NCBI RefSeq assembly: GCF_050320075.1
Contig: NZ_CP190018.1
Direction: 5' to 3' (one strand)
DNA length: 64,000 bases
From: Escherichia coli
GTDB taxonomy: Bacteria > Pseudomonadota > Gammaproteobacteria > Enterobacterales > Enterobacteriaceae
Shown here: piece by piece, positions 24,001 through 30,000 of the stretch
Layout of the letters: each line of letters opens with the position of its first letter
Position numbering within the stretch: position 1 is the stretch's first letter
Made by a program: the position numbers

Positions 24001-27000
24001 CTATATGGCGGCAACATCCGTTTAGCCTCTGGAAACGGATGTCACCAGTAGCTGGTGACTGAGGTACGTTATTTTTACCTTCGGATTACCCGTACGGTTT
24101 TGTATGTCATGAAACTTACGAGTTTTCCTCTCGCAGAGTGGCGAAATGCCTTATATATCTGCGTCTTAAAGATTTTCTGTCTGGCTGCATGAGCTTCTTG
24201 TGACTGTGCGCACGGCATAAGGCCATTTGAAATTTGGCTGCTTGCGTGTGTACGTGGAGTCTGAAGCTGTGCGGCGTCACTTGCGTGCGACCGGAGGGAA
24301 CACCAAGTGACGCCACAACAATCTGCCCTGAAAGCAGCATCACGTAAGGCCTGCCAGAAAATCGTCGCTCGTGACCAGCGTTCTGATGACCGTTTTGTCT
24401 TTCTGACAGCGTCTTTCAGTAACGTGTCCATGCCTTTCCGGCGCGTCCGTTTTCACGGACGGCCACGCCGGAATGTCTTTTTAAACTTCATAATACATGA
24501 GAGGTAAGTGTATTAACTTGTTGAAAAAAGGAATAAATATGAAAAATCGTTCTGATGTCGGAAGGCGTCATCGTAAGATGACGGGGAGTAAAAAATCGCC
24601 CTGGTGCACAGGTAGCGAACTCCTGTAAAAACTCAACATGTGCAAGCTCTGCTACATCAACATCAAACGAGCCAGGAAGGCGAGCAACCGCGTTACAGAG
24701 CCGTCCGTGATGACGAAAAACTAACAATATCAACGATCTGGTCTGTTTATCGGAAGGGCATCTCATGCAGTTGAACTTTCAGAACGGATGGTTTTCTGCA
24801 TCTTTTTTAACAGGGGGATTGACGTTATGTCCCGTAAATCGTCACGTTCCAAAGTTGAAGTCTTTCGCAAGTCATTCATCTCACTTGCCCGTGATTGTGG
24901 TGGCAGCTACGCAACAACCGCTGACAGAATGCGAATTGCCAGATACTTTTTGAATTATTTGCAAGTAAACGGTATCAAACTTCGTCAGACGGGCAGTATT
25001 AAGACGAGGCATATTTCTGGTTATCTTCTCAGCAGGAAAGAGCAGGGGATCTCTCACCGCACAATTCAGAATGAACGGGCAGTTATGCGCGCAATTCTGG
25101 AGAAAGATGGTCGCCTTAAAATAGCGGATCCGTCCAATCCTTTATTGAGCAATGAAGCTCTTGGACTCAGGGATACATGCCGTGATGGTAAAAAGATACC
25201 ACTCTCACAGGATGAGTTTAATAAAGCCTTCAGTAAGGTTGAAAAAAATAATCCCGGTGTTGCTGCAGTAATGCAACTTTCTTATGTTCTTGGACTGAGG
25301 ACAAAAGAAGCTGTTCAGTCTTGTAAATCAGTTAACTCGTGGCTACGTGAACTTGATTCAGGGCATGATTCTCTTCTCGTTGTTTTTGGGACGAAAGGTG
25401 GAAGGCCCAGAGATACAACGATCATTAATCGTGATGCAGTGAAACATGCGCTCATTTATGCAAAAAACATTATGGATAAACAGAATGGTAAACTTATCGA
25501 TCGCCCCAATATTAAACAGGCTATAAACGTATATCGTTACCATGTAAGAAAGGCTGGTTTATCTGGAGTGAAGGCACCACATAGTATGCGTTATCATTTT
25601 TCGCAGGAAGCAAGGCAGTTTTATCGAAAAAGTGGATATGGAGATAAAGAAATTTACGCAAGGGTTTCCATGGACCTTGGTCATGGTGACGGAAGAGGGC
25701 GTTATGTAAAACAGGTCTACTTTAAAGGCGCTGATGAGAGCTGATATTTAAAATGAATCCGGAGGATATGTGTTTTTCGCGAACTTATTAATTTCTGTAA
25801 TAAGAATTTCTGATGAACGATTACACATGCTCTCATTAAAGTATCCTATATGGCATTCATGGATGCGGCAATTTAGTTTTCTGGATAGCCATCTGTTTGC
25901 CTCGTTACGGGATATATTTGTTTTTTGCTGATAGCTGTCAAAAAGTTTACGAACTTGTGCTCTGAGTATTCTCAAATTTTCTTTAGCTGGAGTACCTAAT
26001 GGTCTCCCTGAATTTTTATGACATCCAACCTATGCATTGCATGGGCTGCAAATCCAGTAATATTTGTTTTCTGTAGTGGGTGTCGAGGAAAATGGCATAA
26101 GTGCACCTTTTCTGAGTTGTGCCTTATTACCACAGTAAGTGCAGATTACAATTGGACGAACATCTGCAATATTCAGTGCTGCATAAGTCAGACGTTCATT
26201 TTTCATCATGTTTCGTTTTCCACAGTCAGTGAGAATATGCTTTATTGTGTCTAATTCTTCTCGGAGTATTTTTGAACGGACACCAGTTCGATAACGCTGT
26301 TGAAAGTAAAGCTCAATATGACGTAGTTTTATACTATTTATTGATTTTATCTGTATATTGGATTCTTAAAGAAATGAAGCAAATCTTCTGGCTCTCCCCA
26401 TATATACCAGTATGTCTTCTGGTGTCGGGGCGCATGCTTTAGCTATTTTTGATTAGTTCATCTTTTAATTTTTTGTATTTCGATTTCATCCTGATATTTC
26501 TCTTTAAGGTTCATTAAGAGTGTTACTGAGTAAAAAAATATCAAATTAAGTATTTATTGTCATTCAGTTGTAGCTTCTCAGCAGCTCCACGACAATAACA
26601 ACTTGAAGTTTTATGCAGTTTGTGCTTACAATTTAAACGCTAACTTGTCGCTTCGGCGACCAACCAATCTCCCGGTGGTCTGAGAGGGAGGCTTACGCGA
26701 CCACACTGTCATCTTCGGATGACCAGCCAATGTTCCAGCAGTCTGAGAGGAGCGCCTTCGGGTGACTGCCAGCTAATGTTTCAGCGATCTGAGAGAAACG
26801 CCTTCGGGTGATTGCAATATCCTCGTAGCCTGAAAGGGGATGCCTTTATGGCGGTACATCCGTTTAGCCTCTGGAAACGGATATCACCACTGGTGATTGA
26901 GGTACGTTACTACCAATACCGGATTTATCGGTTACATTTCTTAATTAACTCTGCTGGCTGTATTGTCACCAGTCAGCATTACCTGACGGATTTTCCAGTC

Positions 27001-30000
27001 CGTCAGGGCGGAACGTCCGTCTTTTATCCGGAGGTTCCGATGTTTATTCCACTTCTGTTTCGCGCAGAGATGCGCCTGACACCTTTCTTTCAGCGACTCA
27101 GACAACGTCTGTGTTATCCGGTGAGTCGTGTTCATACACAACATCCCTGGTCTTCTCCACAGTTGCGGCACCTTTACTGCACGCCGTGGTTTGTTAACGC
27201 CACCGGCAATCTGGCAGTCCGTGCCTGCATTGTTTCCATTGACGGTTCTTTGCGACACTGCTTTGAGTTCCGTGAAGGCTCTCACAGCCGTGAATACCGT
27301 TTCTGGTTTGAGGCGCTTCCTTTGTCGGTACTGCGTTTTAACGCTTTTACCGGTCGAATATCCGATCGCCGTACACTCTCTGCTGCCTCCCGTATGGCCG
27401 CGCAGCTTACTTCCTTTCGCTATCGCTTCGGTTTGCGCTGAAGCTGTTTGAGGTCGTTATGACCGTCATTTTCTCTACGAGCAGCGTTGTCTGATCGCGC
27501 CATTCAGAACGCGATGACAAAGCTGATTTTTCCTTAACCCGTCCGGGACCGCTTCCGTTCGGGGAACGGTCTCTCTGTTTCTGGAGATTGTTTATGGGAC
27601 TCGATATTTTTTTCCTTGGGCGTGATCGTGTTTGTGTTACCGACGCAGTGGTATCGGTACCGGAAACGCGGGAAGTGGGGTACTTTCGCAAGGTTAACCC
27701 ACTGATTGCCTGGTTTGAGAAGCATTGTGGACCGGTTGAAAATGCCGTGGAGCGTCCGGTTTCCAGAACGGAACTGGAGGCACTACTGAGCGATCTTGAA
27801 TGCCTTACGCCGGAGAACTGCCGGGAATTCTTCCCCACAACAGAAGGATTCTTTTTTGGCTCTCAGGAGTATGACCAGTATTACTGGAAGGATGTTGAGG
27901 ACGTGAAGTCGTGGGTCAGACGCACGCTTGATTCGTTTGATTTTGAACGAAAAATACTGTTGCTCTGGGCATGGTGGTAACTATTTCTCAGTCCTTGTTT
28001 TTAACCATGTGATTATTCGCAGAGGCCCGACAGCTCTGGCCTGCTTTTATTCCGGAGAATGAGATTATGCAAATAAGTGCAGAAACTCGCGCTGTTTTAC
28101 GTCACTACAGACAGATCATTAACGCCAGACGGCGTGAAGATGGCATGAAAGCTCTCAGCACGCCGCAAATCGTTGATGAGATCTGTGAGTTTATGCTCAG
28201 CCAGCCAGCAGTGTATCTGGGGGGGCAGTTCATCATGCAGAAGGCCAGAACAAGATAGCTGTCTTTGTTCATGGCTTTTCAACAGACCGTTATGCTTTCG
28301 CCACCACATGGTGAGGCGGGTCTGATTTTACTGTTAACCGTACGGTTCACTCTCATACCGTACGGTGGGAGTGAACCCTTTTCATTAAGGACACTCTCAT
28401 GAAAACGAAAACTTCTGCACCTGCTGTATATGTTGGTACCTGGGCTAAATACAACAATGGCAGCATAGAAGGATGCTGGTTTAATGATTTAACCGTTTTT
28501 GAAACTGAAAGCGATTTTTTAGCTGCGGCCCGTAAGTTTCATAAGGATGAAAAAGATCCTGAATTTATGTACCAGGATTATGAAAACTTTCCTTCGGGAA
28601 TGGCTTCAGAATATGGTTTCAACTGGGCTTATGTTGAAGGTTATCGTCTTGCCCGTGAAGAAGGCTGTGAAGATGCATGGTATGCATGGGTTTCTAATAC
28701 CGGTGATACCTGTTTCGAACAGTTCAGGGGGGCGTGGCTTGGTGGTCCTTATGACAGTGAACTCGAGTTCGCCGCGCAGTACGTGGATGAATGCGGTTTT
28801 CTGTCAGAGGTACCTGATACTGTTGCACGCTATTTTGATTATGAGGCTTTTGCGCGCGATTTGTTCATGGAACTGGATTTTGTCGACGGACACGTTTTCC
28901 ATAGGTAACTCACAGCCATGAGGGCGCATATAAGCCGTGTACTGGCGGATGTGATTTCAGCATACATTCTGCTGGTTTTTTTACCGTTGTTGACAATTTT
29001 AATCATCGCGGATGAACAACCTGAACTCTGTTGTTCACCGCCCGGAGGCATCGTTCCTTCGGACGGTGTGCTCTTTCATCAGAAAGAATCAGACAGGGGG
29101 TTTTATGTATTCGCGTTTTATTACTGGTTACTGGCATCTTCAGACGCAGTCCGCTTTGCTGGCACATCTCTGTCAGCTTGAAGGTGAACTGACGATACTT
29201 CGCGCCTGGCAACGTCTCGGAATTACCCCGGTGCCGGAGGATGAAGATGAGCCTTCACCACTTTACTCAATTTTGTGGGATGTTGGTGAGGCTCTGGGCT
29301 GGTTGCTGTATGACCTGGAGATGGAAAATGTTCCTGCACCGGGAACGATTTTCCACGAGGTATTCGACAGGGTTATATCTCTGGGGTATGAGACTGAGCC
29401 CGGTATCTGGGCTGAAAGTATCAGTACCGGAAAGCGCTACGCTGCAATGCCTGACGAATTTTAATGTTTTCCACATTCCCACAGGGACTCATCCCTGTGG
29501 GACGGGTCCCGGCTTTTTCAGGAGAAATTTCATGAGACCCGATTTGAATACTTTACCCGGAGATTCCGGCTGCAGCGTCTGGTTCTATGACGGAATGTCT
29601 CAACCGCGTCTGCTGGCGGGCAGTATTGCCGGGTTACTGACGGATGTTACGATCACATCGAATTACCGTGGTGACGTCACATCTGAAATTCATGACGTGG
29701 TGCAGGAGTGGCTTGCGACCGGCAGGGGGAAGAACTCTGGTACTACAACCTCTACATAAATCCGTCGGCAGACGAACTTATGAATGCCAACAGGCGGTAT
29801 GGCCTCGGACATACCACCTGGCTGAAAGGCTTTATCAATAACGCGGCGTGACACACCGCCATCCCGTGAGGGCTCAGCTCCTCACGGGGCTGTTCCCTCA
29901 GTGATTTTCATACAGAGAGGAGCAGAATGATGAACGTTAAGTCTGTGACTGAGGTTGACGACGCTGTGGTTGCCCGTGTCAGTGAAGTTCTGGAATTCGC

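What the first reader, a model, noticed from the sequence alone, without database searches (positions are those of the whole stretch)
26909..27593. GC-rich stretch of about 0.7 kb with overlapping open frames but no credible protein
Long ORFs overlap on both strands here, and the best one (133 codons, with a GGAGG RBS) contains no lysine and is Arg/Phe/Leu-rich, which is typical of non-coding GC-rich DNA. It lies directly after repeat copy B and contains several hairpins, so it could be a large ncRNA or a degraded gene.
Basis: seen in the sequence. Interest (0 to 1): 0.5.

Follow-up and report, generated by a model that had tools for sequence, protein, structure and literature searches.

The report
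Small conserved gene behind STAXI RNA
The stretch is not a large non-coding RNA or a dead gene: it holds a conserved two-hairpin RNA leader followed by a real gene for a small basic protein of unknown function, which always sits directly after the orphan STAXI RNA in integrative conjugative elements of enterobacteria.

Summary
The sequence observations hold, except that the stretch is not GC-rich (51.1% against 52.5% for the window). The ORFs overlap on both strands. The 133-codon ORF (27040-27441) has a GGAGG site, no Lys, and is rich in Arg, Leu and Phe. The hairpins are real.

The interpretation "no credible protein" is refuted. The ORF is intact and syntenic in about 50 protein clusters from Escherichia, Salmonella (SGI-4), Klebsiella, Serratia, Edwardsiella and Yersinia. 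Substitutions concentrate at third codon positions (19/8/30), dN/dS is 0.1-0.4, and there are no indels although the flanks are full of them. AlphaFold2 gives a confident core (pLDDT 83-94): a four-stranded sheet plus a C-terminal helix. No Pfam, PDB or fold match assigns a function.

In 11 of 11 loci the gene starts 126-205 nt after a STAXI RNA (RF01728). The last ~60 nt before the ATG form two hairpins supported by covariation (15 of 21 pairs). The second hairpin pairs the Shine-Dalgarno site and carries a U-tract. The nascent RNA can instead fold as an intrinsic terminator.

So the first ~130 nt are a structured, attenuator-like leader that is not in Rfam. The rest is a gene that heads the ArdA/ArdC anti-restriction operon. 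The protein's function is still inferred only: basic, possibly nucleic-acid binding.

The parts
26603..26632 (+). Sigma-70-like promoter (TTGAAG-18-TACAAT) just upstream of STAXI module B; the presumed start of the transcript that contains the finding
   Evidence: Consensus scan. Equivalent TTGACA-17-GAAAAT sites sit just upstream of STAXI-B in L014 and L016. These are consensus matches only, not shown to be active.
26646..26909 (+). STAXI RNA module ('repeat copy B'), lying immediately 5' of the finding
   Evidence: Rfam RF01728 hit at 26707-26860, 138.1 bits, E = 2e-30. Direct repeat with 23849-24071. 99.3% identical to a segment of 3.1-kb plasmids; that match ends exactly at 26909.
26910..26981 (+). 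Lineage-variable part of the leader, with local hairpins (26918-26932, 26952-26977)
   Evidence: Full of substitutions and indels between the window, L002 and L003. Hairpins appear in the MFE fold. It lies within the z = -7.6 window.
26982..27007 (+). Hairpin H1 (CCUGACGGAUU-UUCC-AGUCCGUCAGG), conserved in position in all lineages
   Evidence: Unique in the window. One copy per locus, always upstream of the gene. 7 of its 11 pairs change on both sides across 10 lineages and 90% of cells are paired.
27008..27025 (+). Small terminator-like hairpin (27008-27020) followed by a U-tract (27022-27025)
   Evidence: Terminator scan. Fold of the nascent RNA. In L009, L014, L018 and L019 the equivalent is an 11-17-bp stem ending 0-1 nt before U4-U7.
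27009..27039 (+). Hairpin H2, which pairs the Shine-Dalgarno sequence (GGAGG, 27030-27034) and ends 1 nt before the ATG; mutually exclusive with the terminator-like hairpin
   Evidence: MFE folds of 12 loci. 8 of its 10 pairs change on both sides.
27040..27441 (+). Protein-coding gene: 133 aa, pI 11.4, Lys-free; founding example here of a family of 106-133-aa proteins with no Pfam model
   Evidence: dN/dS 0.1-0.4 and third-position excess. Homologues. Synteny. AF2 core pLDDT 83-94. PGAP annotates it as a hypothetical protein.
27442..27593 (+). Intercistronic spacer: hairpin 27452-27464, hairpins at about 27538-27593, T-rich run, then GGAG (27583-27586) as the ribosome-binding site of the next gene
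   Evidence: Scan, folds, partial conservation across lineages.
27594..27980 (+). Next cistron (128 aa, PHROG 7971, unknown function), followed by a 63-aa ORF and ArdA (28399-28908)

Best explanation
The interval is the 5' end of an operon in an integrative conjugative element (ICE). A transcript that probably starts at the promoter-like site at 26603-26632 first contains the STAXI RNA (to 26909). It then runs through a ~130-nt leader whose last 60 nt form two conserved hairpins. H1 is at 26982-27007. H2 (27009-27039) pairs the Shine-Dalgarno sequence and carries a U-tract in its loop. While only the RNA up to the U-tract has been made, it can fold instead into a stem followed by U-residues, which is an intrinsic terminator. 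The leader therefore most likely acts as an attenuator. Most transcripts would end there, giving a STAXI-containing RNA. Read-through transcripts would carry a masked ribosome-binding site. After the leader comes a genuine gene (27040-27441) for a 133-aa, very basic protein with a four-stranded sheet and a long Arg-rich C-terminal helix. It is the first cistron before the ArdA/ArdC, DUF1281 and methyltransferase genes. Shown: the protein-coding status, the family and its strict linkage to STAXI, and the covarying hairpins. Inferred: co-transcription with STAXI, termination and read-through control, and the protein's role. My best guess for the protein is a nucleic-acid-binding factor that acts with the anti-restriction genes when the element establishes in a new host.
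For: Coding status. Window and L002 differ at 57 of 402 positions with no indel, while both flanks are full of indels. Differences by codon position are 19/8/30 and dN/dS is 0.25. The other five frames carry stops or have higher ratios. Deeper pairs give dN/dS 0.10-0.39 with saturated dS. SD plus ATG is conserved, whereas the upstream in-frame extension is not. Homologues. Invariant residues are W50, N53, G56, R78, G80, Y86, A116, L123 and R127-Y128-R129. AF2 with 24 sequences gives five concordant models with core pLDDT 83-94. Linkage. A STAXI hit ends 126-205 nt before the gene in 11 of 11 loci with upstream DNA. The order STAXI-A, EFASI, Integrase_1, STAXI-B, this gene, ArdA/ArdC, DUF1281, N6-MTase is the same in each. 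Leader. 85.6% of cells are paired against 70.6 +/- 1.8 in shuffles. 15 of 21 pairs change on both sides against 8.4 +/- 1.7 (0 of 500 shuffles reach this), and slid controls give at most 60.6%. G-U pairs fit the + strand RNA. Terminator-like fold of the nascent RNA. No Rfam family matches 26909-27593 at E <= 1.
Confidence: 0.8

Rival explanations
1. The whole 0.7 kb is a large non-coding RNA, an extension of STAXI, and the ORF is a compositional accident of pyrimidine-rich DNA.
For: Atypical codon usage. Extreme AT skew and no Lys. Overall folding z = -5.8. It sits directly after a known structured RNA.
Against: Third-position substitution excess and dN/dS 0.1-0.4 occur only in the ORF frame. 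The frame is kept without indels across lineages with saturated synonymous sites. There are protein-level motifs at 30-50% identity and a confident AF2 core. The ORF body folds no better than control windows.
Confidence: 0.03
2. It is a degraded gene: a pseudogene remnant that no longer makes a functional product.
For: No known family or function. One lineage (L008) carries a deletion derivative that keeps only the C-terminal 62 codons. Frameshifted or truncated cluster members exist in draft assemblies.
Against: The ORF is full-length and intact in the window and in all other lineages examined. Purifying selection is seen in every pairwise comparison. SD and ATG are conserved. The exact protein is seen on at least 1000 contigs.
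Confidence: 0.04
3. The hairpin-rich stretch works as single-stranded DNA during conjugative transfer, as an Frpo-like ssDNA promoter or a single-strand initiation/priming site, rather than as RNA.
For: It is an ICE context next to anti-restriction genes, like plasmid leading regions (PMC11541004). Weinberg et al. raised an ssDNA role for STAXI (PMC2864571). Both strands fold better than shuffles. The STAXI-EFASI module is carried by tiny plasmids that have only a rep gene.
Against: Stems are only 5-12 bp, too short to rebuild a -35/-10 duplex. No promoter-like hexamers were found in 26909-27039. Several conserved pairs are G-U on the + strand, which would be C-A mismatches on the complementary strand. 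H2 is built around the SD and start codon, which is an mRNA feature. The relaxase gene is about 28 kb away, so leading-region status is unproven.
Confidence: 0.07
4. H1 is a protein-binding operator-like RNA. The encoded Arg-rich protein binds H1 or STAXI to autoregulate termination and translation of its own operon.
For: H1 and the gene are strictly co-located in every locus. The H1 stems are invariant within the E. coli sublineages although synonymous sites are saturated. The protein has pI 10.4-11.4 and an invariant Arg-rich C-terminal helix.
Against: There is no homology to any RNA-binding family. The fold matches are generic. Co-conservation may simply reflect linkage. STAXI occurs in about 744 E. 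coli genomes, but this sublineage of the gene occurs in only 53.
Confidence: 0.15

Closest known systems
STAXI RNA motif (Rfam RF01728; Weinberg et al. 2010, PMC2864571)
   Same: It is directly adjacent on the same strand and probably on the same transcript. The gene family described here is found only downstream of STAXI (11 of 11 loci). The genomic neighbourhood (integrase, anti-restriction genes) is the one that gave STAXI its name.
   Different: The Rfam model ends at 26860 and the repeat ends at 26909. Nothing in 26909-27593 matches the model. The H1/H2 leader has a different architecture from the STAXI pseudoknot units and is absent after STAXI copy A, which is followed by EFASI instead.
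Rho-independent transcription attenuators and SD-sequestering leaders of bacterial operons (established knowledge: terminator/antiterminator leaders such as trp, pyr and bgl; translational operators)
   Same: A GC-rich stem is followed by a U-tract just upstream of the first cistron. There are alternative, mutually exclusive pairings. One hairpin buries the Shine-Dalgarno sequence. The stems show covariation.
   Different: No leader peptide, ligand-binding aptamer or known regulatory protein site was identified. In the full-length RNA both stable states look 'off'. Termination has not been measured. There is no Rfam family for this leader.
Anti-defence gene clusters of plasmid leading regions (Samuel et al. 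2024, PMC11541004) and, from memory, the CUP-repeat regulon of the IncN pKM101 leading region
   Same: It is a unidirectional array of small genes that includes ArdA/ArdC and an orphan methyltransferase. Repeated upstream elements (STAXI A and B), each with a promoter-like site, precede the gene blocks.
   Different: This is a chromosomal ICE with a TraI_2 relaxase about 28 kb away. The position relative to oriT is unknown. No Frpo-like ssDNA promoter was found. The resemblance to CUP repeats is recalled, not tested.
NTF2-like / cystatin-like alpha+beta folds

Membership tests
Protein-coding gene (generic criteria) | Reading frame kept intact, without indels or stops, in diverged relatives | tested here: met
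   No indels in 402 nt at 86% identity, while the flanks are full of indels. Intact 106-133-aa ORFs in more than 20 diverged clusters. One deletion derivative (L008).
Protein-coding gene (generic criteria) | Substitutions biased to third codon positions; dN/dS well below 1 in that frame only | tested here: met
   19/8/30 by codon position; dN/dS 0.25; 0.10-0.39 in the other pairs.
Protein-coding gene (generic criteria) | Conserved start codon with a Shine-Dalgarno sequence | tested here: met
   GGAGG or AGGAG lies 5-8 nt before the ATG in all 12 loci.
Protein-coding gene (generic criteria) | Codon usage like that of neighbouring bona fide genes | tested here: not met
   -0.056 per codon against 0.136 +/- 0.066 (minimum -0.008) for 34 genes.
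Protein-coding gene (generic criteria) | Product detected (Ribo-seq or mass spectrometry) | not testable with these tools
   No expression data are available here.
STAXI RNA (RF01728) | Match to the covariance model at or above the gathering score within the finding | tested here: not met
   The hits are at 26707-26860 and 23910-24069 only. Nothing in 26909-27593 even at E <= 1.
Intrinsic terminator / attenuator | GC-rich stem immediately followed by a U-tract | tested here: met
   Window: 27008-27020 plus U4. L009: 17 bp plus U7. L014, L018 and L019: 11-15 bp plus U4-U7.
Intrinsic terminator / attenuator | Alternative, mutually exclusive antiterminator structure that is conserved | tested here: inconclusive
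   H1 and H2 are supported by covariation, and they share segments with the terminator fold. However, the switch is inferred from energy models only, and in 3 of 10 lineages the nascent RNA prefers H1.
Intrinsic terminator / attenuator | Measured termination and regulated read-through | not testable with these tools
   Needs Term-seq or in vitro transcription.
Frpo-type ssDNA promoter / ssi site | Long imperfect hairpin that rebuilds -35 and -10 boxes in single-stranded DNA | tested here: not met
   Stems are at most 12 bp. There are no promoter-like hexamers in 26909-27039. G-U pairs are specific to the + strand.
Known anti-restriction / anti-defence protein families (ArdA, ArdB/KlcA, ArdC and others) | Significant match to a family profile | tested here: not met
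   No Pfam, NCBIfam, PHROG or PADLOC hit for three family members. No PDB sequence hit.

The most novel reading that the evidence does not exclude
STAXI, the H1/H2 switch and the basic protein form one regulatory device. STAXI would be the sensing or RNAP-modifying part of a long leader. H1/H2 would be its expression platform (terminator or antiterminator, plus SD mask). The first-cistron protein would bind this RNA to time a burst of anti-restriction gene expression when the ICE enters a new host. That would give the 15-year-old orphan STAXI motif a function and define a new RNA-protein control module for conjugative elements.
Probability: 0.15. Interest if true: 0.7.

Novelty: new member of a known kind. 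Interest (0 to 1): 0.4.

Why it matters
There are two practical points.

First, composition-based judgement failed here. The ORF has the worst codon usage in the element and no lysine. Even so, it is a conserved gene under purifying selection with a confidently predicted fold. It is sometimes mis-started (197 aa) or missed altogether (pSGI4) by annotation pipelines.

Second, the result anchors the orphan STAXI RNA to a fixed downstream partner. That partner is a covarying terminator/SD-masking leader plus a dedicated small basic protein, at the head of the ArdA/ArdC anti-restriction operon. The arrangement is found in SGI-4-like and SPI-7/PAPI-1-like ICEs of E. coli, Salmonella, Klebsiella, Serratia, Edwardsiella and Yersinia. 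This turns 'STAXI, function unknown' into a directly testable regulatory hypothesis about how ICEs control their establishment genes.

Tried and rejected
- **Phage origin:** no DNA or protein match in the phage collection.
- **Plasmid DNA match:** only the STAXI part matches plasmids by megablast.
- **Species-representative genomes:** the scan found no relative.
- **Function by sequence profile:** Pfam, NCBIfam, PHROGs, PADLOC and PDB sequence searches gave nothing.
- **H1 as a repeated operator:** the motif is unique in the window.
- **SD occlusion as a statistically special feature:** my pairing-probability measure did not separate this gene from 35 controls, so I do not rely on it. The covariation evidence is what supports H2.
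- **The 197-aa PGAP version and the antisense ORFs:** the upstream extension and the antisense frames are not conserved.
- **RNAalifold on four sequences:** it chose a mis-registered consensus, so I used a 10-sequence alignment with an explicit structure instead.
- **Whole-window folding scan:** it timed out and was replaced by a sampled control set.
- **Literature:** no paper mentions the protein accessions. STAXI and EFASI are discussed only in PMC2864571 and PMC12370729.
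Full report
**Context**

The window is part of a chromosomal integrative conjugative element (ICE) of E. coli. The finding region is 100% identical to the same locus in strain AR_0089 and 34 other complete genomes. It occurs in 53 of 5,426 genomes, always on the chromosome.

PGAP annotates TIGR037xx ICE genes, a TraG-N protein and type IV pilus genes around it. I found the coupling protein, a TraI_2 relaxase (55198-56886) and an integrase (56940-57929) near the right end.

Rfam places two STAXI RNAs (RF01728) at 23910-24069 and 26707-26860, and an EFASI RNA at 24547-24669.

Downstream on the same strand come the 133-codon ORF, a 128-aa gene (PHROG 7971), a 63-aa ORF and ArdA. After these come LPD29, DUF1281 and a methyltransferase remnant.

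**Checking the observation**

- **ORFs:** the overlapping ORFs on both strands exist.
- **The 133-codon ORF:** it runs 27040-27441 with GGAGG at 27030-27034. Its product has 20 Arg, 15 Leu, 13 Phe and no Lys, with pI 11.4.
- **GC content:** the stretch is not GC-rich (51.1% against 52.5% for the window). It only contrasts with the AT-rich 26150-26600 upstream.
- **AT skew:** this is what is really unusual, at -0.31, in the lowest 0.16% of windows.
- **Codon usage:** -0.056 per codon, lower than for any of 34 annotated genes of the element. An antisense frame scores marginally better.
- **Hairpins:** the region folds better than shuffles (z = -5.8). The excess is concentrated in 26851-27150 (z = -7.6 against controls at -0.59 +/- 1.76). 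The ORF body is ordinary.

**The ORF is a gene**

An 86%-identical relative (L002) differs at 57 of 402 positions without a single indel, while both flanks are riddled with indels. The differences fall 19/8/30 on codon positions 1/2/3, and dN/dS is 0.25. The other frames contain stops or show no constraint, and the antisense ORF acquires two stops.

An exhaustive HMMER search of 1.84 billion representatives found a 120-aa protein 51% identical over residues 48-132 (E = 6e-18). Word-indexed searches added a 130-aa lineage with 310 members. tblastn found 112-aa relatives of 36-40% identity in Klebsiella michiganensis, Salmonella pSGI4 and Serratia marcescens.

A profile of seven lineages retrieved 53 proteins from Escherichia, Salmonella, Edwardsiella ictaluri, Yersinia pestis, Serratia, Klebsiella and Gibbsiella. 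All are 'hypothetical' and none has a Pfam domain.

Codon-aligned comparisons of the deeper E. coli lineages give dN/dS of 0.10-0.39 with saturated synonymous sites. Invariant residues include W50, N53, G56, R78, G80, Y86, A116, L123 and the C-terminal R-Y-R.

The ATG and its Shine-Dalgarno site are conserved. The in-frame upstream extension that PGAP uses here (197 aa) is not conserved.

AlphaFold2 with 24 sequences gives five concordant models with a core pLDDT of 83-94. The core is four antiparallel strands plus a helix at residues 109-130. The N-terminal 40 residues are uncertain (first model).

Lysine avoidance is confined to the E. coli sublineages; other members contain Lys.

**Function of the protein**

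No function can be assigned by homology.

- Pfam, NCBIfam, PHROGs, PADLOC and PDB sequence searches are empty.
- Foldseek finds nothing significant.

What remains is context and chemistry. The protein is very basic, has an invariant Arg-rich C-terminal helix, and is always the first cistron of the anti-restriction block. I therefore infer a nucleic-acid-binding establishment or regulatory role. This is an inference only.

**Linkage to STAXI**

In all 11 loci where upstream DNA is available, the gene starts 126-205 nt after the end of a STAXI hit. The loci are the window, L002, L003, L004 and L014-L020.

The larger order is the same from E. coli to Yersinia and Serratia:

1. STAXI-A
2. EFASI
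3. Integrase_1
4. one variable gene
5. STAXI-B
6. this gene
7. ArdA or ArdC
8. DUF1281
9. N6-methyltransferase

STAXI itself is far more widespread than this gene. It occurs in about 744 E. coli genomes, including ICE remnants in O157 islands and small plasmids.

**The leader**

The last ~60 nt before the ATG fold into two adjacent hairpins in every lineage.

H1 (26982-27007 in the window) has the same position and length everywhere but different stem sequences: CCUGACGGAUU, CCCAAGGGAAA and CCCCGGGGAA. H2 (27009-27039) pairs the Shine-Dalgarno sequence, ends next to the AUG and carries a U-run in its loop.

On a 10-lineage alignment:

| Measure | Observed | Controls |
|---|---|---|
| Cells paired | 85.6% | 70.6 +/- 1.8% in shuffles; at most 60.6% when slid |
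| Pairs with changes on both sides | 15 of 21 | 8.4 +/- 1.7 (0 of 500 shuffles reach the observed value) |

Several pairs are G-U, which fits an RNA of the + strand and not the complementary DNA strand.

I also folded only the nascent RNA up to the U-tract. In the window, L002, L009, L014, L018 and L019, the minimum-energy structure is then a stem ending 0-1 nt before U4-U7. That is an intrinsic terminator that re-uses the 5' arm of H1 or the tail of H1. L009 has 17 bp plus U7. In L016, L017 and L020, H1 wins at equilibrium.

Sigma-70-like promoters lie just upstream of STAXI-B in the window, L014 and L016. None lies between STAXI and the gene.

The most economical reading is one transcript:

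1. promoter
2. STAXI
3. terminator/antiterminator and SD-masking leader
4. gene

This is attenuator-like control of the anti-restriction operon. The structures are shown. The regulation is inferred. Nothing in Rfam matches this leader.

**Rivals**

- **Large ncRNA or pseudogene:** excluded by the coding signatures. Only L008 shows a deletion derivative.
- **ssDNA role (Frpo or ssi-like):** suggested by the conjugative context and by Weinberg et al. (PMC2864571). It is disfavoured by short stems, the absence of promoter hexamers, + strand G-U pairs and the SD-centred design. It cannot be fully excluded for STAXI itself, given the small plasmids.
- **Autoregulatory protein-RNA pair:** attractive but untested.

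**Verdict**

The finding resolves into a known kind of thing: a small accessory gene with a structured attenuator-like leader. It was mis-read because of odd composition. The interest is modest. It comes from the strict STAXI linkage and from a conserved leader that has not been described. Together these make the function of STAXI experimentally approachable.

Noticed in passing
window 26630-26909; L013 (NZ_CP059920) 1-880: The STAXI-B module is 99.3% identical to part of a 3.1-kb E. coli plasmid. That plasmid carries only a rep gene and a 56-aa ORF, and comes from a strain that also carries this ICE. On the plasmid, STAXI is followed by sequence like that after STAXI-A and by an EFASI RNA (758-880). 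A STAXI-EFASI module on a minimal plasmid, typed 'mobilizable', hints at a role in replication, priming or mobilisation.
   Followed up: partly
window 23805-24669: A second STAXI copy (23910-24069) has its own promoter-like site (TTGACG-18-TATTCT, 23805-23834). It is followed 480 nt later by EFASI RNA (24547-24669) and an Integrase_1/Phage_int_SAM_2 gene (24827-25744). This arrangement is conserved in every related ICE examined. A hairpin plus T-run at about 24440-24485 may end that STAXI transcript.
   Followed up: partly
window ~26030 (minus strand gene 25749-26489): The 'zinc-finger-containing protein' gene between the integrase and STAXI-B is intact in AR_0089 (246 aa). In the window it carries an amber stop (TGG to TAG), which splits it into 59-aa and 75-aa ORFs.
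   Followed up: partly
L015 (pSGI4, NZ_CP061046) 4802-5140: In Salmonella SGI-4 the homologous 112-aa ORF is not annotated. Instead a 49-aa ORF on the opposite strand (4989-5138) is annotated. In E. coli, PGAP alternates between 197-aa and 133-aa versions.
   Followed up: yes
L008 5937-6189: A deletion derivative: hairpin H1 is fused directly to codon ~57 of the gene, leaving a 62-aa C-terminal ORF. A paralogue of the next gene is inserted upstream.
   Followed up: partly
window 27050-27650: The coding strand is strongly pyrimidine-rich (A 15%, T 32%, C 30%; AT skew down to -0.40). This is confined to this gene and its spacer. It explains the absence of Lys, but I have no explanation for it. 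Other lineages of the family are less extreme.
   Followed up: partly
window 27536-27593: The next cistron is also preceded by hairpins, a T-rich run and a GGAG that is paired in the predicted fold. The spacer is partly conserved even where a different gene follows (L004, L008).
   Followed up: partly
window 53760-62891: The right end of the ICE holds a UvrD-like helicase, a TraI_2 relaxase (55198-56886) and a tyrosine integrase (56940-57929). Chromosomal genes follow (DUF554, ornithine/lysine decarboxylase, nucleoside symporter). The anti-restriction block is about 28 kb from the relaxase, so its 'leading region' status is unknown.
   Followed up: partly
window vs L001 (AR_0089): The window is not colinear with AR_0089 at a fixed offset outside the matched region, so indels exist between the two ICE copies. 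AR_0089 carries an iha gene among the transfer genes. I did not map the differences.
   Followed up: no
window 22538-22608: Weak sub-threshold Rfam match to SorX (28.6 bits against a gathering score of 46.6, E = 0.002). Probably chance.
   Followed up: no
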